From NCBI GenBank assembly GCA_013115125.1, contig JABANN010000230.1:1-50299 (forward strand): DNA of 50,299 nt. Direction: 5' to 3'. This DNA comes from Perkinsus olseni. Its lineage: Eukaryota. Under the pieces are notes generated by a model. The model was given only the letters and a program-made list of their open reading frames with translations, was not told the origin of the DNA and searched no databases. The position numbers and the translations under genes were made by a program. Shown here piece by piece: positions 3,230 to 39,600 of this stretch. Every line of letters begins with the position of its first letter. Position 1 is the stretch's first letter.

Positions 3230-3302
3230 TAGCAGCGCCTTGTTTCGGTCAAGGTACCTTTGGGTTATGAGTCCAACACGCTATCCACTGCGCCAAGCTG
3301 CT
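3230..3302 (-). tRNA. Initiator tRNA-Met(CAT), degenerate; probably a pseudogene
   Basis: AGCAGCTTGGCGCAGTGGATAGCGTGTTGGACTCATAACCCAAAGGTACCTTGACCGAAACAAGGCGCTGCTA has the A1-U72 pair, a CAT anticodon and an initiator-type T loop (ACCGAAA vs ATCGAAA). One mismatch each in acceptor and anticodon stems. Confidence 0.8.
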
Positions 3303-3379
3303 TTGACAGGATAATATGCTTTTGGCACCCGTAAGGAGGTTGCTTCTAATAGTTCGAGTGCATGTACGGCTGATCCCCA

Positions 3380-3451
3380 TGCATCGTCAGGGAATTGAAC
3401 CCGGACCATCTGCTTGCAAAGCAGATATCCTGACCATTAGACCAAAGCTGG
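3380..3451 (-). pseudogene. Degenerate tRNA with Gly-like body; anticodon now reads TGC
   Basis: TGGTCTAATGGTCAGGATATCTGCTTTGCAAGCAGATGGTCCGGGTTCAATTCCCTGACGATGCA. Anticodon stem intact; the 5' acceptor strand does not pair. Confidence 0.7.
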
Positions 3452-3970
3452 GGGAAAAATCCGCGAAAATGAGGGGGGAAAAGGGTCGCGAAAAAGTTGC
3501 AGAGGGGGGATAAAAATCGGCCTTAAAGTCGCCCAAAAACTAGATTATTAGTTCCTATTGGCATTCAGTGAGTGTCTTATTCCTAAGGGCCTGGTGAAGT
3601 GGAGGGAAGTGCTGTTGTACGACATTACGAGACTGGTGCTCTTCTGAAGACATTATCTGAAACACAAAACAACAAAAACATTTTGCAATAGCGATCTTCT
3701 CCTTCTTTGTCCATGATCCTTAACGTGATTACTACTGACTACCCAGATTGGGAAAATGATTCCGGCTAGTGGAGGTTTTGCGCATTCTAAACTAGTGAGG
3801 AACTACACATGAGACGCATCGGCGACGATGTGGGGAAAGGCCTTCCCGCACAAGATGTCAGCGCTAGTACAGGTGATCGATGTGAACTCGATTCCCAACA
3901 GTTTCCATGCTCGCACTCCGAATCAAGAAACTAAACTCACCAACCTTGATACACGGTTTAACATCGTATT

Positions 3971-4729
3971 TCATGCTGTACCGGCCTTGGTGGCATTTGC
4001 TGCATTTTGCTTCTTTCTCTCATAGTCGTCGCGTTTCCATTGGTTCTTCTTCTCGCATCGGGCTTTCCTCCTCAAATCCTTTTCCCGACGTAATTCCTCA
4101 ACCTCGCTCATGCTGAGGTCTTGTCCGACCGGACAATATCAAACCAGCGACCCATCGGAACGTGTCAATCTTTCATGACTTACTCGCACGCCGTCGTCGT
4201 ACTTGTGAGCCAAAACGACTTCACTGCTCTGGGGGAATCCGCAGATGCTACAGTTCTTCTGTTTGACTTGCTTGCTTTCTCCCGGCTCTTCCGATAACTT
4301 CCCTGACTTCTTCTTGTAAGAAGCTGGTTTTTTATCCGCCACGATCTCGAAGTTACCTTTCTAAGCCTCAGCTCTTTTATTGACCGCAATTTTTGCAGGG
4401 TCACTCAGTTTCGCTTCCGGACATCTGCCGTACGTGGAACCGTCGTCGAAGATGTGATCGTTGAGTCCCCGTGCTCTAGGCTTCTTGCAGTGCGGACAGA
4501 TGGGGTTGTGTAAACGAGCTCTCTTCTTTGGTGGTTCTTCGTCGTTCACATCCTCTCGACTTACTTGGTCTTGCGCGTTCTGCTCCGTTGGATCATGCGC
4601 TTGGATCGTATCGTTGCCACGATGAGCAGACGATGAGGAGACAGGAAGCTGCGGGAGACGGGTTAGAACCACGACCAGAGGCAACCTTGACCCTGGTTCG
4701 AAGCGCGCAGTTCCGCAAAAGAGAAAAAT
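3971..4729 (-). pseudogene. Pseudogene with two CxxC...H...C(P) zinc-finger-like motifs
   Basis: ORFs 4361-4684 and 4139-4342 are in the same frame and continue to TGA at 3971 through premature TAG (4361) and TGA (4139). Motifs CPHC..H..RCP and CSIC..H..YCP. Confidence 0.6.
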
Positions 4730-4897
4730 TTAACCAACGCAAGGCAAGCAGAGGAAGACCGAACAGAGCAGAGCAGAGTAGAAGGGCCCAAAATTTTGGG
4801 TGACAGAGTCCGAAGCAGCAGACCAACAGTGCCAAATCGAGCGAGGGTAGATTAGAAGTCTCGCAACTCACTCACCTTCAGAGAGTCACGAGAAACT

Positions 4898-4971
4898 TAG
4901 TAGAACCGAGAGTTGAACTCGGGACCTACTGCGTGTTAGGCAGTCGCTAAAACCAACTAGACCATTCCAGC
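4898..4971 (-). pseudogene. Degenerate tRNA-Val(AAC)
   Basis: GCTGGAATGGTCTAGTTGGTTTTAGCGACTGCCTAACACGCAGTAGGTCCCGAGTTCAACTCTCGGTTCTACT. Anticodon and T arms fold; D and acceptor stems are damaged. Confidence 0.75.
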
Positions 4972-13398: not shown

Positions 13399-15685
13399 TC
13401 ATGAACCATCGGTATCACTACGTCGGCAGGAGACCCCGAGGGAAGAGCCGTCCGAGAGCCCCCTTACTTCATCGGCGCGGCCGGGCTCTGCGCGTTGCTG
13501 GAGGTCCACGCCTCTGGTCCCACCAGCTTCACTGCTGATTCGGTCGACACGGGCGTCTGACAATCCGACTGTGGCACCGTGCAGCACAGCCCTTCTCCAT
13601 CCTACCGAGGCGGATCCGGTCTTCAGGCCGGCCAATGCCTGGGCCCTAGCTGCTTCCCGAGCACGCTCCGCCTGACAGGAGCGGGGACCCACATTTGGGA
13701 GGAATTAGTGGGCGCGTCGCGAAGATACGGGATAGATACGGGGGATAAGTAGAGAATTGAGGATACCATCTTATGTCAATGGCGGGCCCATCCATTTTAG
13801 CGGTGGCAAGCCCAGGAGCCGTAGCTCAATTCGGTTGCGAAAAGCCTCATATTATATGACCCGCTATAGCGTAACAGTCTAGTAATGCAAGTAAAGAGCG
13901 AGAACGATGCATCCTTCTAGAGGCTAGTTGCCGTGGTGACAACAATAACATTAATATCTTCTTCACTTCGAACCTTGAGGCTGTCGAGGTTACATGAGCA
14001 CTGATGCGCTCTCCAAAATCAGCCAGACCCGATTCCCTCAGAGGCATTCTCCCGCCAGACACACCTCACGATTCATCTCCTCCTCGTCGAAGCGTTGAGC
14101 AGATAACTTAGAGTCCACAACCTCCTGCTTCGTCTTGAGCCATGATGATGTGAAGGATATCTGGTACGACAACAGGGCATGCCTCTTGGACGAATCAACG
14201 CCCGCCTCTGGTAAACAGAATGACCAAAACTAGTCCACGGCAGGTACAAAATGTATAAGCTAATTAGTTACTGCAAATTTCCGGACGCTTCCGAAATGAG
14301 AGAAGACCCGGGATTTCTCCTATACCTAAGCAGGCGTGAAAGACAGTGCCCTCTCACGTTCACAAGCATCTCCTTCTCTGTATTAACCACCATACTCCTC
14401 AGAAGGAGTTGTCCTCTCTTATCAACCCAACCAGCGTTGATGAGATGGTCTAAGTCCCCTTGGAGATCGAGGAGGCCCGTCCATCCCCTGAGCGATGACG
14501 TATACCACTCCTACAAGGTACGAGCCCTACACTGTTGGCTGCTGTTGGGTGAAGGTGGTCGGGCCGTACCGGATGATGGACGTGCTCGGGCACCTGACTC
14601 GAGCTAATGCGGGCAGATGTAGTCCACGGGTCTGCGAGATTCAGATCGCCAATTCTGTCCCTAATTATCACAACTTCGCGTCTGTTTTCACACTATTGTA
14701 GCTAGATAGATTAAAGCTAGTCTCGATGTTCTTCCCTGAGGGAAGTTCCCTCTCGTAGGAACCCCCCTCTCTTCCCCTCCTTTGGCTAGTTCCCACAACC
14801 ACACTCCACCCTACTCCCTCGTGTTGTGACACCGCACGTCGACCTCAAGATACTACTTTAAATTCGGAATCCACAGCATGACCTGCCGCCGCAATCCCTC
14901 AGGATGCTGCCGCCACAGTTCTGCTGCTGATTCTGAGGAGACCAGCTCAAGCGTTCGTTGCGAAGTCAGCCTCCTACGCTGGTTGTCTGCTTCGACCAAG
15001 ACGTTGACTGATAACCAAGTATCCTGCGCCGTGCTCGCCTGGCCCGTCCCCGCATAGAAGTAGCTGCACAGATGGTGAGAAACTCGCTACCACAACCGAC
15101 GGCTCACCCTCTGGGGTAGATCTGCAGACGATGTTTGCACTTTCTCTCGGAGTCCCAGATCTGCTTGCCGAGCATCATAGCACTCTGTGGGCCGAACCTC
15201 GATCGAGGGTCCCGAGCCAGGCAAATCACCTATTACGAATTGGGAGATTTCGTTCTCCTGCGCAACGTGACGATTGCAAATTTTCAGTTTTTTGAACGGA
15301 AAAATAGCCATTTTTGGCAAGTGTAGGAGATGGTGTCCTCGGGGCTACGGCTTTTCTCAAGGCAGTGGTACCTGCTCCGTTTCGTGAGCTCGTAGAGGCG
15401 GTAGGATCTCCCTCATCTCCTCGGAATACTCGATGTTGGTTGTGGCCACTGAAAGAAGTCATCATTGCACAGAGGATAGTCTACAACGTTATCACACGAG
15501 AGGTAGGTGGTTCGATCCCTCCCCTCACCATTACCCGTAGTGGATCCCCTCCACTGCCCAGTATCGGTCCAGTTACTCGCATCCTCCCCTCCAACAGGCG
15601 GCGGCGGAGGGGGAGGAGGAGGAGGAGGAGGAGGGAGGAGGGACTGCTTCTGCTGTTGGGGTCGACGGGGGTACTTAGACGTCAT
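13399..15685 (-). CDS. Multi-exon MATH/TRAF-domain protein with poly-Pro N-terminus
   Basis: Manual exons give HRLQIYPRG, TWLSVNV, and GWTGLLDL...LINAGWVDKRGQLLLRSMVV, in the order of the MATH consensus. Splice phases not fully resolved. Confidence 0.6.
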
Positions 15686-20607: not shown

Positions 20608-22700
20608 ACATCGTTTGCTGCTGTTGCTGTTGCTGTTGCTGTTGTTGCAGCGGCATGTGGGGGGGCATGTGGCATTCTCCTTCTTAATTCCTAATTTGGC
20701 TTGGACCTAGTGAGAGCAGAGAATGACTACTCATCCTTTCCGAACCTTCCCCGAGGTACATCCGAGCCGAAGCCTCCTCGGCGACAAGTGCAATGCTTAG
20801 CAAGACATTTGCGACAATCTTTGCATCGCTTCGCTCGGCCGCGGCGATCGACTGAATATCTATGATGCTGTTCGACGGTAGGCGAGAGGTCTTACCACAG
20901 TCGCTGCACTTCGCCACGGGCCATTGGACTCCCTTACCGAATGAGTACTGATGCACCTTGGTACCTGAAAATCGGGGAAGGTGTGGTATTGCATTTTTCA
21001 TGCATGCAGGAGTTGAGCGACGCAGCGATACCACCGCTCTTACTGGCTGGGAAATGCGGCAACCCGCTGGAAGTATTCGAGGAATCACCAATCTTCATCC
21101 TTGGACAAGAGGTGGGGAGCGTCTCCACTCGATGAGCCGTTCCATGGCGATACGTGATAGTCACCAGACCAGTCGCTGAAACCACAGCGCGATTAGACTA
21201 ACACGCCATCGTACACGTTTGGCAGCCCACCATCCCGGGTTCTATTCCCACGAGCTGCGCTCAGCACAGTCATTACCTGTCTGGTTATTGGTTATTCTCG
21301 CCCTACACCAGACCTCATCTTCTCCAGGCGCATTCTCCTGCCCCGCCAACACCGACACTGGGCATCCAGGGTCAGCCGCTATCTGATGACCGCGCGCCAC
21401 GAAATTGCCAAAGACTCCGCATCCTAATCTCCACGCACCCTTTTTGACCCCATGACTGCTCGGGGACTCAGCAGCCTAGCCAGCTTCACCCCGATATCAC
21501 ATCCCATCGTCTTAGCCGAGGCGTAGGTATCGATCCACTGGGCATAGACGAATCTAAGCAAGTGTGATAGGGGAGGATGTACTCTCCTCCGTGAACTCGA
21601 GCGAAGCAGAGAGAAGCGTGCGTTCGACGATAGCCTCCTGCAGGCGGACTGTGTTGTCCAACGCACGCTCGGGACTGAGACTTAACGCATAAGCGGTGAA
21701 CAAGAGGATCAATCTAACACCATGAGTAACCTTGCGAGCCCCAGAGAGTATGTTCGAGCTACTCGAATGCAATTATATCACGCCCATGGCGGCGGAATTT
21801 CAGGTTGAAGCAAGCTGCTCGCAGATTGGTTAAATTAGGTAACCGTCGTTTCTCCTGCGACGATGAGAGGCGCCGCCCATACTACTTCGGCATTCGAACA
21901 GATTCCTCAAATCCGAGAGCCTGGAAGAACCCAATGGCCTTCTGATCCACGCTGCTGATAACCTCGGTGAAACCTACGAAAGGAGTGGTACGGGTAGCGT
22001 GTGCGAGCCTACCCTACTACCTTCATGGACCCACTGTTGCATCAACGTATGCAGCAGACTCCGACCGTACCCCGAACCCCGATAGGCCTCAGCGGTCGCG
22101 ATATATGCCAACTCGATGAAACCAAACTTATAATGACGCGCTGAAGAGAACAGAACTCTCAATGCCAAAGTACCACGACAATCAACGAGCGATTCTCATA
22201 TTATCGTGATGGTTGCAAAGCCATCAATAACAGACAACTGGAGCACCGATTGGAAGCACGAACTCCCAGAAAACTCAGAGAGGTGCAACGTCGGTCGTAG
22301 CAAGAGAGTCGGCGCGAACGTCTATTCGATTTGGACGCACAACGGCGGACAAAACTTGTGAACTCTCGGTGGGGCACTATGCTTCACCGGTAAATTCGAG
22401 GATGTACTCCAATCTCCTAGACTCGAGCCTCGTTCACGGCCGAAGGAACTCATGGCGCTCCATACAACAGCCCCTGCTATAAGCTGGTTCCCACTTCCGC
22501 ACTGCGCAGTATGATCTCGCCACAACGCCCCCAGAAAGTCAGATCGTGCATGCAAGTACAGTTAAACACGCCCTACAGCCGATGCAGCTCTCGAATACGA
22601 TGGGTTCCATTCGTTTTCACAGGTAGCATACTGTACATGACGATAACACTACTTCAGCTTGCATGCTAAATTGGCGATACATCTGTTCGCGTATCGAGAT
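20608..22700 (-). CDS. Multi-exon GNAT (GCN5-related) acetyltransferase with CW-like Cys motif; may extend upstream to ~24.6 kb
   Basis: FIELAYIATAEAYRGSGYGRSLL (acetyl-CoA motif A), AIGFFQALGF (motif B), and WPVAKCSDCGKTSRLP. Confidence 0.75.
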
Positions 22701-26153: not shown

Positions 26154-26813
26154 TTCATGCTGCACCTCCGATGATTTAGATCGGGAATCTCGTCGCGTAG
26201 GGCGTCGTGCCACCTGTAGAAGGGTCGACATTGCGTGCCGTTCGTTTACCACTTTTCTATCCACTCATGGCATATTCCCTTCTCGTTATGATGTTGTCGA
26301 TGTCGAATAGCAGGGAGCTTGTGTTCACGTTTGGGTGTCAGATAGTGGGAATAGAACATCTGGAGGATAATTCGCCAAGACTGTCCTCAAGGAGGGTCTG
26401 GACTCCAGACTCTGGAGGGTTCCTATGAGGGTTCCCTGGGAGGTACTCCCATGCAGTCCCAGGATGATATGTGCGGCTGATTGAATCAGCCTGATATTCG
26501 GAGCATTTTCGCGGCGCAAAGCATGCCGAAAAATCTGCTCGGTCGTAGGGACGAGTGCATGCAAGGAAATGTGTTGTACATATGAATAAGGTTGGAAACG
26601 CGGGCCAAGCCTTTGGTATAGGGCCTATACTATAGGCCCTATGCGAAATGATACTGTTTTGGGCGGCACTGTACCGAGTGAAACTGAACGACACGAACCC
26701 CATTAGTTTCCCCACACGAGTGAGTTCCCCCATTAAGGCTATATAAGAGACTCGGTCTGAGAATTATAGCTATAGTAGAACTGGCCTGGCAGGCGCGCTT
26801 ACACCAAGGGAGT

Positions 26814-27370
26814 TACTACACCATTTCGAGACCTCCTTAGTAAAACCCCAGACCAAATTAGTGAAAACCCAGAGCAATTTAATCGGCACGCGAGACGCAT
26901 CCGGATCGTTCCTCCTCCCGGCCCGGGAACTCCGGCCATGAGTGGCGGGAGATCCGGTAGGACGAAGTCAGAGTACCTCCGGCCGTACTGTGATATGTTG
27001 CTCCGAGAAGACGTTGAAGCAACTTTGTATATGATGCTTCAATCACGCCCAAACATTGTACTCTCCTTGCTCAGCCATGGAAGGCATGCCAGTCGGAGCA
27101 CCAATTCGAGTGCTTAAGGATTAATTTTCAACCTGCGATCTGAAGGATACCGAGGGCTCACTTCATGTAGGCTGACGTCGTGAGCTTTTTCGTACTTGTT
27201 AGGGATTTTTTTGGCTCTCCTGAATTGGTCTCTCGTGAAATCAAATTGCTTTGGGGTTATTCTAATTTGGTCTGGGCTTTATTAAATTGCCTTGGGTTTT
27301 TACTAATTTGGTCTGGGCTTTATCGAATTGCTCTGGGATTTTCTTAAGTAGGTCTGGAAATGGTGTAGTA
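26814..27370. mobile_element. MITE / non-autonomous TIR DNA transposon with subterminal repeats
   Basis: Terminal inverted repeats TACTACACCATTTC(G/C)AGACCT(C/A)CTTA. About 20-bp subterminal units (CCCAGACCAAATTAG / CCCAGAGCAATTTAAT) are inverted at both ends. The terminal TA may be the TSD. Confidence 0.85.
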
Positions 27371-28268
27371 GTAGTTACTAGTAGGGCCTATTACCGGGGC
27401 TTTACACGCCTATTGCCGTGACCCCCATGCTCCGACCAATGCACTCAGGGGCAGTAACCAGTGGCAGCAGCATCTCTCAACCAATGCGCAGTACACACGG
27501 TGAACACGATCAAATACTGAACCAAAAGTAAAAGTGGTGAAGGTAACGAGGAGATACAAAGACTAATCCGCATCCAATCTAGCCAATGCACAACTCGGAC
27601 AGTACCATGGCCATGGTGCACTAATCCGATTACTGTAACCGTAGCGGCGAATCGACAGCGCCGAGACGAGAAGGGGAGGGCAAAGAAAGGAGCCTCCTCT
27701 AAGGAGGGAATTTGTACCGCCTCTCAATCACCACCAGTTGGGTGATCGTCGAATTCGATATAATCGGCCTAGCTCTGCATACTCTGAATGAGTATCACTC
27801 CCGTGTCACTCCATCACGCCACGTTGAGGCGCTAGGCCACATGGGAGGATCGCAGAGGCGATGTGGACTGACCCGACGGCTGCCGACCGAAGAACGACAA
27901 ATCATAGCTTTCTTGCACTCTTGCATCTTCTCGTCTTTCCTCAATGCCACTGATAACTGCGCCACACTGCGCGGTACTACCGCGACGGCTTGAGTCTCGG
28001 CGGACTATCTATTGTACAAGAGAGTTTGTTGGTCTTTCAACAACTCTGAGGGCTTCTTTCATGCCTCCAGTCGGCGAAGAGGCCGGAGCATGAAAGTATA
28101 TCGGCAGGTGAAGGGTCGTACGCGTCCACCCGGTGGACTCCGCCGATCTTTGCTTTTCACCACGAAGAGCCTCGCGAACCGCTATATGCTGATCAACTTA
28201 AGCTCGTTGACAACACATTTTCCCGCTTTGCCTTGTTTGTAGTAGACCGTTAATTCGCCGTACACCAG

Positions 28269-31200
28269 ATGACGACGCAGTACATGGCTGTCTCGAATGA
28301 AACAGAATGGGAAGATCCCAAGCCTGTAGTCCCCGCAGGTCAGTCAACCTATGATGGCTGGGCGACCCTTCAAGGCGCCTATTCTTATCCTATTTCCTCA
28401 GTACTCCGCCACTTCACCTCAAAGTCCTGCTACTCTTGTTATCTTAGTATTTGTTAATGTCCAGCTCTGGCGGTGGTGGCAGCGGCGGCGGTGGTGGTAG
28501 CGGCAACTGGTATAGAGGGCATAATAAGAATCAGCAGAACTATCCTACGGTACTAATGCTGATGGGAATCGTGGAAAGTCTGTTCTCGTTATGTCGTTTC
28601 TCGCTCGTCTCGGTCGAGCCAGCCATCCTCGTGTTTTACTGACCGGCAGCCAAGATTTAAGCGTAGCCACAGCAAGACTACAATAACTGCGGCACTTGTG
28701 GGTATAGGAACTGACTGTTTACGCTCATTTCTCGAAGGAGTGGTAGCTGCTGGGAACTCCCCTGTGAAAATTATTTTCATTCAGTATGGCAAATATGGGG
28801 GTAATCGTCAACAGCATCAAGGAGTCGGTAAGAAGTCTCAACCCGTGGTGATGAACCAGAGAGTGCAGCAACAGCAACAGCAACAGCAGCAAAGTAGTAA
28901 AGCCTTGATGATGTCGGCACGAGACTATTCGCTGACGCTGAGGTTACTCCTCGGGCCTTTTACTTCTATAGTCATTCTCGTGGGTGATGAAGATGGGTGT
29001 TGCTCGTCAGGGACATCTTCGCCTAGCGGACCATCAGCCAGAGCGGCCCTCACACGATCACTCACTTCGAGCAGTTCAGCCACTACGAATGAACCAGTCG
29101 CTGACCGGATGTCGGAGTTGAAAAGGAAACTTGTGGAAAGTCGTGGAGGTAGTTGAAGACCTGTGGCTTTTAGTTCACTCAGTGCCACCGGTCATTATCC
29201 GGTCTCAGCTGAGTTCAATAATACCGTTGCTGGTGCAGCTCTAACGTTGCGGCGTGGAAAACTGCAGCATGAATCGGAGATGTGAAACGCATCGGCCATT
29301 GGGTAGATTTACCAGAAATGAGAATCGCGGATGCTGATAGCGGCGGGGATCTCTGCCGAGCCTCCCCAATTGGGGTGAACGATCGGCGAAAAACACATGC
29401 TTCGAGGCTGACTTGAGGCCGGCTTGTTGTTTGGACGTTGTGTTGTTCGGCATGTCCGAGTCGGCCCCGAGCGGAGACTTTCAAAGCGCCGCTCTATCAC
29501 CGGGGGGAAGATGTTCAACAGGAGAGTAGATGATTGAAATGGAGATTTCGGGGTGTTGACGAAGTTTGTTTATCACCTTGGAAGCTCCCTTGGAATCATC
29601 AGGTTTAACTGCGGATTTATCGGCGATGCAACCCTCGGCCGAATCAGCAGCTAAAATCCCGAAAGTGGCGGCTAGGGGTGGCAGGGGTAGTGTCACCACG
29701 GAGCAGTCTCAACAAGTTCATATACACCCACGGAGAGGAGGGGGTAGAGGGAGCTCGGCTACGCCAAAAGTAGAAGAGATATTGAGGGTCGACGATTCAC
29801 CCAGCTCCCATGTTTTGGTCGCCTTCGTTGTGTCGCGATTTACGCGGTTATCAACCTCCGAACGAGAGTTATCAACTTTCTAGGGTACGCTGTTTTCGTC
29901 TCAGAAGTCATCAGCGTCCAGCCCATCTCATGGCGTCCCCAAGGCGGGAGTGAGAGCCCCTGCGAAGGTCGGTAAACAGATCAGAGTGCAGCATCCCCCT
30001 CCTCCCGCAGCGTCGATCGTTCGGACAGGCTCGGCAGCAGTAGCGCATGGAGTGCATCTGGTAGGCCTTCTCGGTGAGTATGACTGTTCGGGCTGGACAG
30101 TTAGAAGATTTACGTGTATTGTGAGCATCACAGCTGGGGATGAGAAGATATTAACCATGGAAATGTGCCAACCGGGAATTGAACTTGGGACCTCGCCGTG
30201 ATCATTGCAGGCGAAGCATAAACCGCAAACAACGCCATCGCCACCCCCTCCCAAGGCGACTGCCCATCCAATGCGGCGTAGGAGGGGGACGTCGCCAGCC
30301 GTCAGTGAAGGCAGTGGCAGCAGCGACGCCGCAGTGGCCCCGCCGACGATGCCGGTCCCCCTACTGTCAACAAGTGGTGGAAAGAATCTTCACCAGCATC
30401 ATAAGGTGATCCTAGCAATCTGGAGTGTCGACCGACTTTCTGATGAGGGTAGTCAGTCCAAGTCGTTTGGAATGATATTCATGGTCTTTGAGAGCTACCA
30501 CACAAGTCCGGTAGAGGGCAAGGTCTCCGTTCGGTTGTGACCCCTTCGATTCACCACCTTGCCGCTATCGATGATCGGACTGTGAGGACTGATTCTCCTG
30601 TCCGTAGGCCGTCCAACCCAAATCATCGGGGTTAGCTCATCAACATCATCAGCAGACGGCGGCGACACCGAAGAGTAAACCTGATGATGGGAAGGTAGTG
30701 AGAGGGGGGAGGGAGGGTGAGAGTCGCGCTGTGATTCTCGATTCAACCTCTAGGCTCGTGCTTATGTGGTTGGCTCGCCCGTTGATCTATCGTGCGCTAC
30801 TTGAAATTGTTACTGCCCGCGGTAGGGTAGTGAGAATCTAAGCTCGATTCTGGCGCGTTTCAGAGCCAAAGATACTTAGTTGGTGAGCGTATCACAAGAG
30901 GCTCCTGTCGCTCGGTTCAGTTACTGGAGCTCATACCTGCTCAAGTGACATCGAGTCCGCCCACACTGCCGTCTTCAGCGAAAAGTGCCCCGCCGCCGGT
31001 AGCTGCTCATAAACCCACTTCCCCGGTATGGTTATCGCATAATTTTGTGGCACGTGACGGAATTTGGGTGGCTTGTAGGAGGTGCCGAGTAGAGGCACGC
31101 ACTCGGCGGTTAGCCGGCTACGTACAATAGAACATCTCAGAGCGAAGAGAGCGCAGCAGCAGATCTCGAAAGAGGTAGCAAGGCTGGATCGAACCAGATA

Positions 31201-32066
31201 CCTTCGGATGGGGGTGCGCGTGTTCTACCGTTATGCCATAATTTCTCGTAGCATCCAACACCGAAGGCGACCCCAAGCGTTGCAGTGCCCTCAACGCCTA
31301 AGCCTGCTGCAACGCCGTTGCCTCCACCTCCAGTAGCTGCTGAGAAGACAGTAATTGGAGGCTTGGTCGCTGCTACCGCTCAGTGGCCATTCTGAATTGC
31401 CAGCAGGTACCCAAGCCTGCTCCCAAGTCTGAGCCGACTCGGCCGGGCTTTGAAGGAGGCGAACAGTCATTGACGGAGAGGATGTTAGAGGCGGTGTTGT
31501 CGCAGCTTATTGACACTCATAGTCAATGGTAGAAAATGTGCAGCTTCGCTCCGCTCTCATTTTGCTGTATTTTTAGGCTGGTAGAACACTGCGGCGTGGA
31601 GAAGGAGTCCCTGCAGCCGAGACCAGTGGATGTTACCGCCATGGACCTCTCTCGGGTGGAACAGATGGTTCTAGACGAAACGGCCAACTTTGAAACCAAG
31701 CTCAAGGCTTCCTCGCGGTGAGATTTCTGGGAGGGGAGCGTTCGGTTTTTTCGTACGCAAATTTTCTCGAAAGAGAAATGACGCAGTCGGCGTGAAAAAA
31801 GTTTAGCGAAAGATGATGGTGAGGAGATGGGCTCTGAAGCTTTTGTAGTAGGAAGGGTCTTCGGGCGTGGGATTGAGCAGTTATCGCGCGCCACGAAATG
31901 TGTATCCTGATCAGGTATCTTGACGCAGTTCGACCAGTGTTGGATCAGCTACCGAAGCTGACTCCAGCGGAGGAGGAATCTTTCGGTTTGCATCAGAAAA
32001 GTAAACCTCCTGCTTCTGCTGGACCGCCGGCAGCGGCCAAAACTTGACGATATTACAGTTGTCTGA
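28269..32066 (+). CDS. Multi-exon low-complexity (G/Q/S/P-rich) hypothetical protein
   Basis: ATG at 28269 followed by a series of coding-like segments separated by GT-AG introns. No domain recognised. Confidence 0.55.
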
Positions 32067-33528: not shown

Positions 33529-33610
33529 TCTATCGGAGTGGTGTTTTTGGGTCTGGCTTGATGCTTAGCATTTTACATTTTTTCTATCAGTTTTAGTTTT
33601 TTCAATCGCC

Positions 33611-36600
33611 ATGGTAGCGCCTCAAGAATCCGCTAAACAACAACCGACTAAAATTGTCCCTTCGGAAGGCAAATCTGCCGTTGAACACGAAGTTGCCGCC
33701 GCTGAGGTCGTCGATGAGGGTGTCGAGTAAGCTGTACTCTCTTGCAATCTTGCATTTTCTCAGTTTTCTTATTGAGCAGGACGCAGAATTGTAGTCAGAA
33801 GGATGATGAGCAGGTCCAGCCGCAGTTGGACCAACGACAAAGGCTCATTTCAGTGGCCAATCGATTACCTTGTAAGCAGAAATGGCACATGTGGGAATCG
33901 AACCATAGACCTCAGGGTTGTGATACTTGTCTGGCGACCTGTTGAGCTATGGATGACTTTCTTTTCGATAGGTACCATTCATAAGGATAAGGCCACGGGG
34001 AAGTGGGTCGCTAGCAAAAGCTCAGGAGGCCTGGTGTCGGCACTGAGTGGTGTGAGCGGCATCGACATGCTTTGGATAGGGTGGCCAGGATGCGAGGTCC
34101 CTGATGAAGATAAAGCAGAAGTCTCGGAGTTGGTATGAATCACGTCCTGCTGCTGTTGTTGATTTTCTCGTTTATTATCAGGTGAAGGCACAGGGATGCT
34201 ATCCAGTGTTTCTCACTGATGCCGAGATCGAGCTGTACTACAATGGTTTCTGCAACAACACGCTTTGGCCGTTATTTCACTACATCACCCCTTCAACGGA
34301 ACGTAAGTCCAACATTCCTATTTACATTCGACGATTCTCGGTGTACTTCTTGTGATACCATGAAATCACCAATTCCTGATAATCATGCGGTATCACGCTC
34401 CGCGTAGTGAGAGTCATTCATATTTGTATTTGAGTATTCATATTTGGTAGTGAAAACCACGCGGATCACTTTTGGTTGTATCGTGCTTCGTTCGTCAGGT
34501 GTGATTCAGCGCAAGACGTTAGAATGGGAAACTTATCAAAAGGCCAACGCTAAGTTTGTAGATGCCATCATGAAGGTAATGCTCTGCGCATGAGGATACT
34601 ATATCGACTTCGATGTCGTCGTTTTCCAGGTTCTGCACGACAACGATCTGGTATGGGTTCATGATTATCATCTCATGCTGGTAGCATACCTTACCACCTT
34701 AGCCGGGCGCCGCTGTGGACTGTGTTGTTGTAGGTGCCCAAGCTGTTACGAGAGCGAGTTCCTAACGCCAAAATTGGCTGGTTCCTTCATACACCCTTCC
34801 CCTCTGCTGAGATCTACAGGATGCTACCGTAACAATCATAATCAACATCGAGAGTGGCTTATTGTGATTTTTACTCAGGCAACGGGAAGAACTCCTACAA
34901 GGTCTATTGTCGGCCAACTTATTGGCTTTCCATGTAAGACGACAACAGGCATTTCTCGCCGGGAATCTTAGGTCGAAGCGTAGCACTCATGAATTGTGTT
35001 GCGTGTCCCCGCGCTGCCTTCCTGGCTCGTGGTGATGCCATTGGTCCGCATCAGGTACATGACTATGTTCGACATTTCCTGTCCAGCTGTGTGCAACTAA
35101 CCACCTTAGAGATCACTCCGCAAGGAGTTGACGCTACACCCCTCAATGGCAATTTTGTAGGTCCCCGGTTCGAATCTCAGTGGAGGCATTTTTTCTCCTC
35201 TCTCCGTAGGTGAAATGCACTACTATACCTATTGGCATCGACCCTACTTCATTCACCTCAGTAGCTGAGTCTCAGTCCGTGGCAGCACGAGTGGCTAGTT
35301 TGAAGGAGCAATGGGGCGACAGAAAAGTCATCCTTGGTAATATGCCTTACATACACTATGTTGTGGAAATTGAGGATTTTCATATTTTATAAATGATAAG
35401 TCATCGGTTTGCAATTTTCCGTCATGCATCAAAATGAGAGTGCGATGGCTTGAGAGTATGCTCAGGAATCGTCGGAATTCCTCCTCGTTTTTCTCTGCCG
35501 TTGGCACCCTCTTCCAAATTTCTCGGCTGCGCGTTTTGCTCCTGCCTTGCGGTAGGCGGGCCCATCGTGGTTCATTGTGGTTGTGTCACTCATCAGGTAT
35601 CGATCGTCTTGACTACATCAAGGGTATTCCGCACAAGCTGAAGGCGTTCGATATGTTCCTGGATGACCATCCTGAGTGGGCATCCCAGTGCGTCTTAGTA
35701 AGAGGATATCACCTTCAACGGCAAAGGGACTCACCATTTCTTTCCTCAAGGTCCAACTGGCTATTCCCACCAGAAGTGAAGTGCCTGAGTATCAGCGGCT
35801 GAAGCGACAGGTGAGCGGTGGATGTCGAGTCACGGGTGTCAGAATGAGTGGAGTGTATCAGGTTCACGAGATGGTTGGGTCGATCTGCGGAAAGCATAGC
35901 AACCTATATACTGGTCCACCTGTTATCTATCTGGATGGATGTGTTGATCATCAAGAGCTGGTATGTGGCGTTTTGTCCTGGCGGTTATGCTTATGTTCCC
36001 ATTCGCGAATGTCCCTGGTTCGATCCTTGCTGACGGTGTTTTTCAGACTGCCCTCTATAGAGTAGCTGATGTTGCACTCATCTCGTCCATCCGTGATGGT
36101 ATGAATCTGGTAGCCTACGAATACGTGGCCTCTCAGCAACACAAGTAAGCCCGAGCGTTCGTCTGTAGGAGTTGGTGGAAGTGTGGTATGTAAATGAATG
36201 TACTGCTTCTTCAGGAACGGTGTTCTGGTCATCAGTGAGTTTGCCGGAGCATCGCAGTACCTCGGGGCCGGAAGCGTAAGTCAGCTTTATCGTGGTCTTC
36301 GTGACCGTTTTACACCGTGTAAAAATCTCCGTCTTAGATACGAATTAACCCATGGAACCTTGAGGAGGTGTCTTGGGCGATCTATGAGGCTCTGACTATG
36401 GGTGAGGACCGCCGAAAGGAGATGCACGAGTATTGCTTCAACTACAGTAAGCATGCCTGCCTGTGATATCGCGTTGCTCATCTTCGTTGATCAGTTCGTA
36501 ACCACAGTGCCCAGCGCTGGGCTGAGACGTTTATCGAAACTCTGAAGGATGCTTGCGCTCAGCGGGAGGAGGTCTCCGCTTCGGTAAGTTTGTTCACGGT

Positions 36601-39600
36601 GTTCCATTTCGTCTGCAATACCGTCCTCATCGCAGGTGTCCCCTCTGGTGCCCTTCGATAACGTGTGCCGTTCTATCGAGGCTAGCAACAAGCTTCTGCT
36701 GGTAGGTTGCGGTGGGTAGTTAAGCTTACTTTTTTTGCCCGCAATACCACACCAGTCGTAAATCATCGGCGGTCTGTTCAGGTATTGGATCTCATGGACT
36801 GCCTCGTCCCGTCTAAGACAAGGAGAGGAGTGCCGGCCAAGCTGTACCAGTCTCTTATGTCGGTACCGAAGGACCTCATGGCTAGTCTAGGCCGTCTGGC
36901 CAGTGATAAAAGTGAGAAGCGGCTCAGGTTCGATCCTCGCACCTGTCATTCCTCAATCATTTATCAGATACTATAATGGTTGTGACGACCAGTCACTCTA
37001 AGCAAATCTTAGAACGTCTACTCGGTCACCTTCCGATCTACTTGTTACCCGAGAACGGCTGCATTTATCGAACGTAGGCCGCCGCCGCCGCCGTCGCCTT
37101 GCCTCGTCTATAGTCTACTATTATCACTTCCGGCCGTTAGCACTGCGAGGCGCATCGGCTGCGTGTTCTCTGCTCTTACGGAATATCCGTATCATATATA
37201 GATCCTTTCACTATATATGAAATTTTATTAGTACTAACAGAAAATTGTATGTATCGAAGTGGAAAGGAAGCTCATAATAAATAAAATATCAGGAAATAGC
37301 AGGAAAAAATTTATGCTGAATTTCATTCAATTTAATCAATTAATTGTATTCAGTTGAATATCGAGGAGTCATTTATGGTTAGTTTAGTTTGATTTGCTGA
37401 ATCTTCTGATCAAATTTTAGAAACTGTTTTTTATTTAATTTGATCAATCAATTTTGTTTAATTGGATATTACAGAATTATTAATGGTTCGTTCAATTCGA
37501 TCGAGTGATTTTTATTACTCATTGGAAGTGATTATTAATTAACTAATCTTATTCGCTTGAATGCAGTTTATAAGACTGTTATAGATTATAGTGAACTTTA
37601 TTAAATATGAAAATACCAGTAGAATGAGTACCACATTTTCTCCAAGTAATGGTGGTGACCACTCGTTTCCTGCATTTTCAGTCCCGAAGGCGAGTGGAAG
37701 TACGCTGATGCCCTCGGATGCAGCTGCGCGACAGCAGAAGACAATTCGCTTGCTGAGGTAGGGAGCGCGTCCGTGCTAGTTTGATACCACTCCTTCTGCG
37801 AATCATAGTATACCCTCGGTTCTTCAGGTTGAGGAAGGTACAGAGTCCGCTGCAGGCATCAGCTCTCCTCGTTCGCGTGCTGCTTCTTCTAGTGCCGACA
37901 GTGAGTTCTCGAGGTCCCTGGTTCGATCCCATGCTAGATCATTTATTCAGCTTCGGACCACGGTTGGATGAACGGCGTCGAGGAAGTCCTACGGTATTTC
38001 CAAGAGAGAACACCCGGCAGCTACATTGAGCGAACAGAGTGAGAAGCATCACGAGCCTTTCCAAGTTGCCACTGTCTTGTCCTTCTCTTCAGATTCAGTC
38101 TAAAATGGTTCTTCGATAACACACAGACTGACTTTGGTGGTCCTCAAACTAGAGACCTCATGATACAGCTCTGGGCTGGCCCGCTGGTCAACGCTGAAGC
38201 AGAGATTGTCGTTGGCAACAGGTAGGGGTCCGCAGCGCGGTGGAGATGGTTCGAATTTTTGGGGTATCTTTTAGGTATATTGAGATTCGACCTAAAGATT
38301 CTTCGATTGCGTCCAATCTAGAGAAGATACTCCATCATGAGATTCTCGATGCTGACACAACGTCTGATTCCAAGGTACCACGATTTAGCTAATTTGCATA
38401 TGTTCGAAAGACTTGGCGCTCGCCCTCAGGTTGACACTTGCGTCGTTATCGGCGCGTACCCCTTCCGTGATCAAGATGTCTATCAAGCAGTGGAAGACAC
38501 GCTTGTTCAGCAATGGATACCCAAATACACTCGGTAAGTTTTTTCGCGCGCCACGAAATTAGCGACCGTTGGAAGGACGGTGCCAGACACCACGGCTGCC
38601 CACCCAGTGTCTCGTCGTCGTCCATGCGACACTCGAGCGCTGATTGCATCATGGACGTGATGGGCTGTGACGCTTTGCGATTGAAAGGGAATCCTCAACA
38701 GCTTTCCCAGCTAAAGTGGGTTTCTGTCAAAATGTCGTCTGCGGGAATAGAACCTGGGTCCCTCGTGTGTCAAACGTGTGTTCTATCGTTCAGACCTATC
38801 CAAGATGGTGGCAAAGACTCTCTTGAATACGAAGGTGAGTCGACTGTACTGCCCTCTACCGATCCTTATCATCGTCTATTCAGGCGAGACGGCTGTGAGC
38901 GGCCACGACGTTTTGTACGAAGAAATGGTCAAGTCGCATACTCTAACGTAAGTTTTGGGTCATCACCTCGCTATCATTATCACTGTGCTGCTTTCCTCAG
39001 GCACCCTACTCGACAGACGTCTTCTGCTGACAACCAGTTGGACTTGGAGCCGCCTACAGCTGTAAGCCTGTTGAGACCTTCTCATTGTTTTCGCCCTCGC
39101 TCGGCTGCCTGTGTTGAATGATTTGAGCGTTGTTAGGCTGCGAGCGCATCGACTGCATCAACGTCGTTCCTGGACGAGTCATCGCCAACTGAGTCGACTA
39201 AAGAGGATCTACAGCGCTTACACGACTCCTATTATTCAGTGGCCGTGGGGCAGTGTAAAGTATCCAAGGCGAAGTAAGTACATCATTCTAGGAAGCTCAT
39301 TATTAGCCACACCTCTATTTCTGCTGTGCATCGTCATGGGTTTTCTTTCTTGCTGTTCGCTCTTCTTCGGGTTTTGGAGTTCCATTCTCGCGATCATCAA
39401 TATTATTATTATTGATGTGTGTCTCACTTCCCACACTCCCCCTTGTCAGATATTCTATCCCAAACACTTACTATGTGGCCAATCTTGTCCATGATATTGC
39501 GACGCACCTACCGCAGTCGCCAACGGGTAGCAGCGCGGCCAGCACCAGCAGTACTAGTGTCAGCAACAAGAGCGTCGTCGCCGAGCCTGCCCAAGCTGAG

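What the first reader, a model, noticed from the sequence alone, without database searches (positions are those of the whole stretch)
35157..35209. An intron whose splice signals appear to be supplied by a tRNA gene 3' half and its Pol III terminator
Seen: the intron reads GTAGGTCCCCGGTTCGAATCTCAGTGGAGGCA-TTTTTT-CTCCTCTCTCCGTAG. The donor GTAGGT coincides with the tRNA variable region; compare GTAGGTCCCGAGTTC in the Val copy at 4898-4971. The T6 run directly after the discriminator base is both a Pol III terminator and the start of the pyrimidine tract. No CCA is present, so the source was a gene or pre-tRNA rather than mature tRNA. Inference: tRNA genes are pre-adapted to become introns.
Basis: partly seen in the sequence, partly recalled or inferred. 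Interest (0 to 1): 0.75.

Follow-up and report, generated by a model that had tools for sequence, protein, structure and literature searches.

The report
Spliced intron built from tRNA relic
A genuine 53-base intron in a Perkinsus trehalose-synthase gene consists mostly of a broken tRNA-like repeat with its oligo-T tail, and several neighbouring introns are built the same way, hinting that such repeats can seed introns.

Summary
35157-35209 is a real GT-AG, phase-0 intron: RNA-type contigs of three runs join 35156 to 35210, and the DNA run does not. It lies in a fused trehalose-6-phosphate synthase/phosphatase gene of a Perkinsus, most likely P. olseni. Bases 35159-35194 read as tRNA positions 44-73 plus T6. 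They match the variable-loop/T-arm pattern 18 of 18. They align to the Val-like tRNA at 4898-4971 with z = 5.0.

It is a sequence relic, not a tRNA. There is no A box, the T stem is broken, no covariance-model hit appears, and the RNA has no special fold.

It is not unique. Seven of the 30 introns of this gene, and two introns of the neighbouring gene, carry the same kind of core in either orientation. In three of them the intron ends lie within 17 bases of the element ends. The oligo-T follows position 73 in 7 of 12 elements, antisense ones included, so it came with the element.

My reading is that a dispersed Pol III-type tRNA-like element became, or seeded, these introns. Whether it created this intron or invaded an older one could not be tested, because no relatives' genomes were available.

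The parts
35055..35156 (+). Upstream exon of the TPS/TPP gene (...[34 protein letters not shown])
   Evidence: RNA contig pieces end at 35156. It is colinear with P0004-P0006.
35157..35209 (+). The 53-nt phase-0 GT-AG spliceosomal intron (intron 8 of 30)
   Evidence: The joint 35156->35210 is present in X7, X11 and X10 and absent from DNA run X1. Reading through it gives a frameshift and a TGA stop (ORF 34938-35213).
35157..35162 (+). 5' splice site GTAGGT. Bases +3 to +6 are the tRNA variable loop AGGT; the origin of the GT is unresolved.
   Evidence: Sequence. Alignment to Val-like tRNA positions 43-67. X1 loose ends start at 35159.
35159..35188 (+). tRNA-like 3' part. It comprises the variable loop AGGTC (positions 44-48), the T arm CCCGG-TTCGAAT-CTCAG (3 of 5 stem pairs left), the acceptor 3' strand TGGAGGC and the discriminator A.
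   Evidence: 18/18 match to the pattern. Alignment A1. No Rfam tRNA hit. No A box upstream, score 4/8.
35167..35176 (+). B-box / T-loop motif GGTTCGAATC
35189..35194 (+). T6 run directly after position 73. It is a Pol III terminator-like tail of the element and the start of the pyrimidine tract.
   Evidence: Sequence. The family-level test is (7 of 12 elements).
35189..35205 (+). Uninterrupted 17-nt pyrimidine tract TTTTTTCTCCTCTCTCC
   Evidence: Sequence.
35207..35209 (+). 3' splice site TAG
   Evidence: Joint.
35210..35335 (+). Downstream exon ([15 protein letters not shown]...)
33872..33971 (+). Intron 1 (100 nt). It holds a full-length antisense tRNA-like element at about 33883-33956 on the - strand.
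   Evidence: Joint. Pattern match 18/18 on the - strand. A box 8/8 at the right spacing, null P = 0.0024.
35961..36046 (+). Intron 12 (86 nt). A sense tRNA-like core sits at 36009-36038, followed by TTTTTCAG. The tRNA likeness of its 5' half is not significant.
   Evidence: Joint. Pattern with 1 mismatch. A box 6/8, not significant.
36912..36967 (+). Intron 18 (56 nt) with a sense B box GGTTCGATCC and a ...TCA + T-rich tail
37901..37950 (+). Intron 21 (50 nt) with a sense tRNA-like 3' part at 37912-37941 followed by TTTATTCAG
   Evidence: 18/18 pattern match. Gene model.
38222..38274 (+). Intron 23 (53 nt) with a sense B box GGTTCGAAT and a TTTTAG end
38716..38793 (+). Intron 26 (78 nt; in frame and free of stops, yet spliced). 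It holds an antisense tRNA-like core at 38733-38762 on the - strand. This is the weakest member.
   Evidence: Pattern with 3 mismatches.
31175..31251 (+). A 77-nt intron of the neighbouring + strand gene. It coincides with an antisense full-length tRNA-like element at 31174-31245.
   Evidence: P. olseni proteins P0009 and P0010 align to 31079-31174 and then to 31252-31353. Pattern with 1 mismatch. A box 8/8.
30164..30193 (-). Antisense tRNA-like 3' part at the 3' end of an intron of about 150 nt (about 30061-30210) in the neighbouring gene
   Evidence: RNA pieces start again at 30210.
4898..4971 (-). Val(AAC)-like tRNA. It is the best in-window match to the intron, covering the T arm only.
   Evidence: Rfam tRNA at 41.2 bits. 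ARAGORN. Alignment.

Best explanation
**What it is**
35157-35209 is an ordinary, efficiently removed U2-type intron of a Perkinsus (probably P. olseni) trehalose-6-phosphate synthase/phosphatase gene. Its body is a 5'-truncated, decayed copy of a dispersed tRNA-like Pol III-type element.

**What the element contributes to splicing**
- Bases 35159-35194 correspond to tRNA positions 44-73 plus the element's own oligo-T tail.
- The element supplies donor positions +3 to +6 (AGGT, the variable loop).
- It also supplies the first six bases of a 17-base pyrimidine tract.

**What remains unaccounted for**
The GT, the CT-rich 11-mer and the TAG are of unknown origin.

**The family**
The element belongs to a family scattered through this genome's non-coding DNA, with about a dozen copies in 50 kb. 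The family forms the core of 7 of the 30 introns of this gene and of two introns next door, in both orientations.

**Inferred steps**
- I infer that such elements landed in coding sequence and were tolerated because they are spliceable. Their extent is consistent with a short A-rich leader, a tRNA-like body and an oligo-U tail, that is, a Pol III primary transcript, sometimes 5'-truncated.
- In sense orientation the oligo-T seeds the pyrimidine tract.
- In antisense orientation the complement of the A-rich leader does the same.
- On this reading the intron was born from the insertion.

**Shown versus inferred**
- Shown: the splicing, the tRNA-derived core, membership of a family, and the T-run belonging to the element.
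- Inferred: insertion as the origin of the intron, and retroposition as the route.
For: **Splicing**
- The joint is present in three RNA-type runs and absent from the DNA run.
- The 30-intron model is open to the stop codon, colinear with Perkinsus proteins, and matches RNA-contig lengths exactly: 1922 = 1922 and 278 = 278.

**tRNA origin**
- 18/18 match to the pattern.
- z = 5.0 against the Val-like tRNA.
- AGGTC lies at exact tRNA spacing from the B box in most copies.

**Family**
- GGTTCGAWYC with at most 1 mismatch occurs in sense in 5 of the 24 introns examined and in 0 of 25 exons. The shuffle mean is 0.22 and 0 of 2000 shuffles reach 5.
- There are also antisense copies in introns 1 and 26.
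- Six other contigs of DNA run X1 match from 35159 onward with unlike upstream sequence.

**The T-run is part of the element**
- TTT lies right after position 73 in 7 of 12 elements, including 3 antisense ones. P = 7e-9, or 3e-6 against an intron-only background.
- CA occupies positions 72-73 in 8 of 12.

**Introns roughly equal elements**
- 31175-31251 against element 31174-31245.
- Intron 1 is 100 nt against a 74-nt element with A and B boxes.
- Intron 12 is 86 nt, with the core ending 8 nt before the AG.
- In the 50-56-nt introns the relic fills roughly 60-70% of the length, leaving too little for a separate older intron.

**Literature context (passages read)**
- P. marinus holds more than 500 copies of five tRNA gene types (PMC3706591).
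- SINE insertion creating a coding-region intron in rice catalase A, and Alu 'intronization', are on record (PMC2394776).
Against: - No orthologous locus could be examined, so the intron may be older than the element.
- No target-site duplications or terminal repeats were found around any copy. Repeats of 7 nt or more occur at 12.5% of random places with the same geometry.
- Copies share only the parts common to all tRNAs. Acceptor strands and flanks differ, so they could be independent decayed tRNA pseudogenes rather than one mobile family.
- The GT is not shared by the closest genomic relatives, since the loose ends start at 35159.
- The closeness of the element's 3' end to the AG is forced by intron shortness in four of the five sense cases, so it carries little weight.
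- Full-length tRNA likeness is significant only for intron 1 and the 31175-31251 intron. Intron 12 is not significant.
- 23 of the 30 introns of the gene show no such core.
- One copy (30164-30193) sits in an intron of about 150 nt with about 100 nt of unrelated sequence, as expected for insertion into an existing intron.
Confidence: 0.55

Rival explanations
1. The intron is old. A tRNA-like element later inserted into it, and deletions under pressure for minimal intron size (median 54.5 nt here) trimmed it back. What survived was the part that happened to serve as pyrimidine tract and branch region.
For: - Intron lengths cluster tightly at 48-56 nt: 17 of 30 introns.
- The element at 30164-30193 lies in an intron of about 150 nt with about 100 nt of unrelated sequence.
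- No target-site duplications were found.
- The GT and the last 15 nt of the intron are not element-like.
Against: - It would need near-complete loss of the original intron sequence on both sides of an intact element in several independent cases. These are 31175-31251, intron 1 and intron 12, where only 0-17 nt lie outside the element.
- In this intron only 17 of 53 nt are not element-derived.
Confidence: 0.28
2. Intron transposition within the gene: one tRNA-containing intron spread to other sites of the same transcript by reverse splicing and recombination. That would explain five sense copies in one gene.
For: Five sense-oriented cores lie in one 5.9-kb gene. Introns 18 and 21 share ATCATTTAT(T)CAG at their 3' ends.
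Against: - Outside the motif shared by all tRNAs, the five introns differ in T stem, acceptor strand, length and 5' part.
- Antisense copies in the same gene and in the neighbouring gene cannot arise by reverse splicing.
- Other genomic loci match this core.
Confidence: 0.06
3. The core is functional in its own right. It could be a nested Pol III unit, a TFIIIC-binding B box (an extra-TFIIIC site), or a tRNA-like RNA processed from the excised intron.
For: The 10-nt B box is intact while the stems beside it are broken. A T6 terminator follows.
Against: - There is no A box, score 4/8.
- Only 3 of 5 T-stem pairs remain.
- There is no Rfam tRNA hit at E up to 10 in the gene, and no ARAGORN call.
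- The intron RNA folds no better than shuffles, z = +1.45.
- B-box conservation is expected anyway, because every tRNA species shares it and the copies were found by searching for it.
Confidence: 0.04
4. Chance resemblance of a short intron to a tRNA T arm.
For: The intron is short and only about 30 nt are involved.
Against: The exact 18-position pattern is expected about 4e-4 times in the window (my arithmetic) and occurs 4 times. With up to 3 mismatches there are 16 matches against 3.98 expected, and 0 of 100 shuffles reach 16. The alignment to the Val-like tRNA gives z = 5.0.
Confidence: 0.01

Closest known systems
Introners / introner-like elements (Micromonas, Aureococcus, fungi, Symbiodiniaceae, Polarella, Amoebophrya)
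   Same: Repeated sequence families make up the bodies of many introns. Intron ends lie at or near element ends. They occur in the alveolate neighbourhood of Perkinsus (passages read in PMC11282704, and PMC7789003).
   Different: - Described introners are mostly DNA transposons or MITEs with terminal inverted repeats and target-site duplications, and their copies are near-identical. Here the core is tRNA-like, no TIR or TSD was found, and copies share only the tRNA-universal part.
- The main text of Gozashti et al. 2022 mentions neither tRNA nor Perkinsus. Its supplements could not be read.
SINE-born introns: rice catalase A intron from a SINE insertion; Alu 'intronization' in primates
   Same: A Pol III-derived short element inserted in an exon becomes an intron, and a T-run next to an AG is the favoured 3' splice site in SINEs (passages read in PMC2394776).
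   Different: - Those are isolated cases, mostly in UTRs and alternatively spliced.
- The T-run there is the antisense poly(A) tail.
- Here the T-run is the sense-strand terminator-like tail, the introns are in coding sequence and removed in every contig seen, and the pattern recurs in one gene.
tRNA-derived SINEs
   Same: A tRNA-related sequence with A and B boxes (in the full-length members), dispersed in many copies and sometimes 5'-truncated.
   Different: There is no tRNA-unrelated body, no LINE-like or poly(A) tail and no target-site duplications. The elements end in oligo-T directly after position 73.
Dada DNA transposons of P. marinus that insert into tRNA genes (Kojima and Jurka 2013)
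   Same: Same genus. They explain why tRNA genes and fragments are unusually numerous: more than 500 copies of five tRNA types (passages read in PMC3706591).
   Different: Dada splits tRNA genes at the A box (TAGCTC) and is 4.7-11 kb long. The copy here starts at the variable loop and has no transposon beside it.

Membership tests
U2-type spliceosomal intron | Absent from mature RNA and present in DNA | tested here: met
   The joint 35156->35210 is in X7, X11 and X10 (one contig each, three studies) and in 0 contigs of DNA run X1.
U2-type spliceosomal intron | GT...AG ends, and removal restores the reading frame | tested here: met
   The ends are GTAGGT...GTAG. The intron is phase 0. The model is open to the stop codon and colinear with P0004-P0006.
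U2-type spliceosomal intron | Pyrimidine tract and branch point upstream of the AG | tested here: inconclusive
   A 17-nt pyrimidine tract lies at 35189-35205. The branch point cannot be assigned from sequence. The candidates are the A of CTCAG at 35179 and the discriminator A at 35188.
Functional tRNA gene | Cloverleaf scoring above the Rfam or ARAGORN threshold | tested here: not met
   No RF00005 hit at E up to 10 in 33600-39600 or in the whole window at this site. No ARAGORN call. ARAGORN at the 80% threshold is uninformative: 27 hits against 30.25 in shuffles.
Functional tRNA gene | A box and B box at tRNA spacing | tested here: not met
   The B box is present. The A-box score is 4/8 and falls in conserved coding exon (null P for a score of 4 or more is 0.92).
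Functional tRNA gene | Oligo-T terminator shortly after the 3' end | tested here: met
   T6 at 35189-35194, directly after position 73.
Introner / introner-like element | Many related copies forming introns at unrelated sites | tested here: inconclusive
   - Seven of 30 introns of this gene have such a core: four strong, two with a B box only, one weak.
- Two introns of the neighbouring gene also do.
- Six other contigs in X1 match this core.
- No whole genome is held, so there is no genome-wide count.
Introner / introner-like element | Element ends coincide with splice sites | tested here: inconclusive
   Met within 0-17 nt for 31175-31251, intron 1 and intron 12. For this intron the 5' end fits to within 2 nt, but 15 nt at the 3' end are unexplained.
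Introner / introner-like element | Terminal inverted repeats and/or target-site duplications | tested here: not met
   No flanking direct repeat above the chance level around 12 elements.
Introner / introner-like element | Presence/absence differences between relatives (recent gain) | not testable with these tools
   Only protein sequences of P. marinus and P. chesapeaki were reachable. The metagenome scan gave only relatives of 48% identity or less, without introns.
tRNA-derived SINE | tRNA-related head, unrelated body, LINE-like or A-rich tail, and target-site duplications | tested here: not met
   The elements end in oligo-T directly after position 73. No target-site duplications.

The most novel reading that the evidence does not exclude
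Perkinsus carries a genome-wide family of retroposed pre-tRNA-like units: a short A-rich leader, a tRNA-like body and an oligo-U tail, often 5'-truncated. These act as introners of a new, Pol III-derived kind. Wherever one lands in a gene, in either orientation, one of its homopolymer-like ends becomes the pyrimidine tract and a nearby GT/AG pair completes a minimal intron. On this reading a sizeable share of this lineage's very dense short introns was born this way.
Probability: 0.3. Interest if true: 0.85.

Novelty: new variant of a known kind. Interest (0 to 1): 0.68.

Why it matters
How new spliceosomal introns arise is a long-standing question. The documented large-scale source is DNA-transposon 'introners', together with a few isolated SINE cases. 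Here one gene shows roughly a quarter of its 30 introns built around tRNA-like relics, in both orientations. In some of them the intron ends sit on the element ends. If this holds genome-wide and the introns are lineage-specific, there are three consequences:
- It would add a Pol III / tRNA-derived route to intron gain.
- It would show concretely how an insertion can arrive already spliceable, because the terminator oligo-T becomes the pyrimidine tract and the variable-loop AGGT fits the donor consensus.
- It would make the question testable in a culturable, transfectable parasite lineage that is sister to dinoflagellates.

There is also a practical point. Public gene models already translate such relics by mistake: the N-terminus of P0009 reads through the element at 30140-30205.

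Tried and rejected
- **Whole-genome search.** No genome is held for this window.
- **Rfam tRNA model.** It finds only three low-scoring tRNAs at 3230-4971 in the whole window, and nothing in the TPS gene at E up to 10. The relics are too degenerate or too truncated for it.
- **ARAGORN at lowered thresholds.** 27 hits against a mean of 30.25 in 20 shuffles. I dropped it as uninformative.
- **Pairwise alignment of all 25 introns then known to the three in-window tRNAs.** Only this intron is significant. The other relics derive from other tRNA types, so this test neither supports nor refutes them.
- **Brute-force search for GT..AG pairs with open flanks around each element.** It was too noisy with such short exons. 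ORF tests for candidate introns at 15458-15540 and 23203-23124 were inconclusive, so the elements at 15501, 19638, 23145 and 47028 remain unplaced as intron or intergenic.
- **Target-site duplications.** None above chance.
- **RNA folding of seven intron strands.** None folds better than shuffles, and no tRNA-like or end-pairing structure appears.
- **Position of the sense cores near the 3' splice site.** I considered this as evidence and rejected it, because in introns of 50-56 nt the position is forced.
- **Direct repeat GTAGGT at 35157-62 and 35206-11.** It cannot be a target-site duplication, because splicing would then not restore the original sequence. I treat it as chance plus splice-site consensus.
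- **Metagenome scan with the P. marinus protein.** It returned 80 loci, all at 48% identity or less and uninterrupted, so they are useless for intron positions. I did not analyse them further.
- **Literature.** I found no paper describing tRNA-derived introns in Perkinsus or tRNA-derived introners. One hit for 'SINE' was only the species name 'sinerae'. Supplements were closed, including the introner family tables of Gozashti et al. 2022.
Full report
**1. What the window is**

The region 33.6-39.8 kb on the + strand encodes a fused trehalose-6-phosphate synthase/phosphatase.
- One exon (33974-34129) is 92% identical to two P. marinus proteins and 90% identical to a P. chesapeaki protein, all carrying PF00982 + PF02358.
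- An exon of the neighbouring gene is 100% identical (64 of 64 residues) to two proteins that NCBI names Perkinsus olseni.
- The organism is therefore a Perkinsus, most likely P. olseni.
- No whole genome is held for the window.

**2. The observation**

The sequence at 35157-35209 is as quoted, and it is a real intron.
- Contigs of three RNA or RNA-like runs from three studies join 35156 to 35210 (skips 53, GT..AG). The DNA run has no such joint.
- The intron is phase 0, between ...LNGNF and [12 protein letters not shown]....
- The junction is colinear, without an indel, with the P. marinus and P. chesapeaki proteins.
- Reading through the intron runs into a TGA stop (ORF 34938-35213).

**3. 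The gene model**

I built the full gene model from coordinates. It has 30 GT-AG introns from 33872 to 39449 and an open frame to a stop at residue 989.
- Fifteen introns are listed as RNA joints.
- The other fifteen rest on three things: frame continuity, colinearity with the Perkinsus proteins, and an exact arithmetic check.
- In that check, the exon bases my model places between 35336 and 39449 number 1922, and both RNA contigs hold 1922 bases between the corresponding pieces. Likewise 278 = 278 for 34303-35054 (using table 8).
- Intron lengths have a median of 54.5 nt, and 17 of the 30 are 48-56 nt.

**4. Is the core tRNA-like beyond chance?**

Yes.
- GGTTCGAWY occurs 10 times in the window against 1.69 expected; 0 of 100 shuffles reach 10.
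- The 18-position pattern AGGTCNNNGGTTCGAWYC (variable loop plus T arm at exact tRNA spacing) has 16 matches with up to 3 mismatches against 3.98 expected; 0 of 100 shuffles reach 16.
- Four of those matches are perfect, including 35159-35176.
- I aligned each of the 25 introns then known to the three tRNAs that Rfam finds in the window. Only this intron is significant. Intron bases 1-25 align to positions 43-67 of the Val(AAC)-like tRNA at 4898-4971, with score 30 and z = 5.0; 0 of 150 shuffles reach that score.
- Laid on the tRNA numbering, 35159-35163 is the variable loop AGGTC and 35164-35180 is the T arm. Then 35181-35187 is the acceptor 3' strand, 35188 is the discriminator A, and 35189-35194 is T6. 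There is no CCA.

**5. It is a relic, not a tRNA**
- Only 3 of 5 T-stem pairs remain.
- There is no A box. The expected place lies in conserved coding exon and scores 4/8.
- The Rfam tRNA model gives no hit at E up to 10 in the gene, and ARAGORN gives none.
- The intron RNA folds no better than shuffles, z = +1.45.
- The acceptor strand (TGGAGGC) differs from that of the Val-like tRNA, so that copy is not the source.
- In DNA run X1, six contigs match the window from 35159 rightwards and carry unlike sequence before it, with agreement 0.47.
- So near-identical copies of this core exist elsewhere in the genome, and their similarity begins two bases inside the intron, after the GT.

**6. It is one of a family**

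I scored GGTTCGAWYC in the 24 introns known at that stage.
- Five have it in sense with at most 1 mismatch. These are introns 8, 12, 18, 21 and 23, at 35157, 35961, 36912, 37901 and 38222.
- Intron 1 (33872-33971) has it exactly in antisense.
- None of the 25 exons comes closer than 2 mismatches.
- The shuffle mean is 0.22, and 0 of 2000 shuffles reach 5.

A seventh and weaker antisense copy lies in intron 26 (38716-38793; 3 mismatches). Introns 25-30 were not part.

By strength the seven divide as follows:
- Four of the 30 introns match the 18-position pattern with at most 1 mismatch (introns 1, 8, 12, 21).
- Two have the B box only (introns 18, 23).
- One is weak (intron 26).

Outside this gene there are further copies.
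- The same pattern lies at 31186-31203 and 30176-30193, both on the - strand, in the neighbouring + strand gene.
- It also lies at 15501, 19638, 23145 and 47028, whose gene context I could not settle.

An A box at the right distance from the B box is perfect (8/8; null P = 0.0024) in the intron 1 copy and in the 31186 copy, so these two are full-length tRNA-like elements.

**7. Intron ends and element ends**
- The P. olseni proteins P0009 and P0010 align to 31079-31174 and then to 31252-31353. This defines a 77-nt intron at 31175-31251.
- The antisense element there spans 31174-31245 by tRNA numbering. The donor GT is therefore the complement of the element's acceptor 3' strand, and the AG lies 6 nt beyond its 5' end.
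- Intron 1 (100 nt, RNA-supported) holds an antisense element of about 74 nt, with 11 and 15 nt to spare. The spare 3' part, TTTCTTTTCGATAG, is the complement of an A-rich leader that the sense copy at 15501 shares.
- Intron 12 (86 nt, RNA-supported) ends 8 nt after the core, in TTTTTCAG.
- In the 50-56-nt introns 8, 18, 21 and 23 the core plus tail fills most of the intron.

**8. The T-run belongs to the element**
- TTT starts within one base after position 73 in 7 of 12 elements. The null frequency is 0.027 in the window (P = 7e-9) and 0.066 in this gene's introns (P = 3e-6).
- Three of the seven are antisense to their host gene, where the run cannot serve as the host's pyrimidine tract.
- CA occupies positions 72-73 in 8 of the 12.

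**9. What is not shown**
- The GT of the donor is preceded-by-homology only in the Val-like tRNA. The other family members have AG, GA, TG or CG there, and the six genomic relatives diverge before 35159.
- The last 15 nt (CTCCTCTCTCCGTAG) match nothing else.
- No target-site duplications flank any copy.
- The nearness of the sense cores to the 3' splice site is forced by intron shortness and is not evidence.
- Twenty-three of the 30 introns show no core.
- No orthologous genomic locus could be reached. The metagenome scan returned only uninterrupted relatives at 48% identity or less.

**10. Explanation**

Most likely, a dispersed tRNA-like Pol III-type element became the body of this intron.
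- Full-length copies extend from a short A-rich leader to an oligo-T directly after position 73. That is the extent of a Pol III primary transcript, and 5'-truncated copies such as this one fit incomplete reverse transcription. This route is my inference.
- I favour birth of the intron by insertion (about 0.55) over invasion of an older intron followed by shrinkage (about 0.28). In several independent introns almost nothing but the element lies between the splice sites.
- The copy at 30164-30193, in an intron of about 150 nt, shows that plain insertion into existing introns also happens.
- Spread within the gene by reverse splicing is unlikely, given the antisense copies and the unlike flanks.
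- An independent function for the core is unlikely, given the missing A box and the lack of structure.

**11. Comparison with what is known**
- It works like an introner, or like the SINE-born introns on record. Passages read in PMC2394776 describe the rice catalase A SINE intron, Alu intronization, and the statement that the AG after a SINE's T-run is the favoured 3' splice site.
- It fails the structural marks of DNA-transposon introners (TIR and TSD) and of classical tRNA-SINEs (unrelated body, A-rich tail).
- Kojima and Jurka (PMC3706591, passages) report more than 500 copies of five tRNA gene types and tRNA-targeting Dada transposons in P. marinus. This gives a rich source of tRNA-like DNA, but not this architecture.
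- Eight searches of the held library found no description of tRNA-derived introns in Perkinsus or of tRNA-derived introners.
- The main text of Gozashti et al. 2022 mentions neither. Its supplements were closed and could hold relevant families.

**12. Verdict**
- The case is a new variant of transposable-element-derived introns.
- It is worth a genome-wide census and an orthologue comparison, both of which are straightforward with the public Perkinsus assemblies.

Noticed in passing
window 38716-38793: Intron 26 of the TPS gene is 78 nt, in frame and free of stop codons (it would read [26 protein letters not shown]). Even so, the RNA-contig length arithmetic fits only if it is spliced out. The P. 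marinus proteins lack these residues.
   Followed up: partly
window 30140-30205: The public P. olseni protein P0009 begins with MRRYLPWECSNRELNLGPRRDH. That is a translation of intronic sequence containing the antisense tRNA-like relic, so it is probably a mis-annotated start. It also shows the relic is present, with two residue differences, in another isolate.
   Followed up: partly
window 3230-3302, 3380-3451, 4898-4971 (- strand): Three clustered tRNA-like genes score only 40-45 bits with Rfam, have mismatched acceptor stems and lack a T-run right after the 3' end. They may be pseudogenes too.
   Followed up: partly
window ~26670-27460: A high-copy repeat. The summed contig depth in DNA run X1 is 6322 against about 80 elsewhere. 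There are many variant letters, rearranged joints and an (AACGC)n-like loose end.
   Followed up: no
window 37190-37640 (inside the 608-nt intron 19): An AT-rich block of about 450 nt, unlike its surroundings, with only weak inverted repeats. One RNA-like contig diverges at 37517. It may be an insertion of another element.
   Followed up: partly
window 38544-38561 and 21386-21406: Between 9 and 13 contigs of the DNA run break away at these points with unlike continuations. These are the boundaries of other dispersed repeats, one of them inside intron 25 of the TPS gene.
   Followed up: no
protein P0004 residues ~494-540 versus window 36584-36830: The P. marinus TPS model P0004 replaces a conserved stretch (present in P0005, P0006 and the window) with unrelated residues. 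This is probably a mis-spliced annotation.
   Followed up: no
window 35460-35523 (- strand, inside intron 9): A weak match to a C/D-box snoRNA family (sR17; 19 bits against a gathering score of 36; E = 0.5 in the 6-kb search). It is antisense to the host gene and is probably chance.
   Followed up: no
window 36883-36896: An A-box-like word (7/8) lies at tRNA spacing upstream of the intron 18 core, but inside the conserved coding exon. I take it as chance (null P = 0.03 per test, 12 tests).
   Followed up: partly
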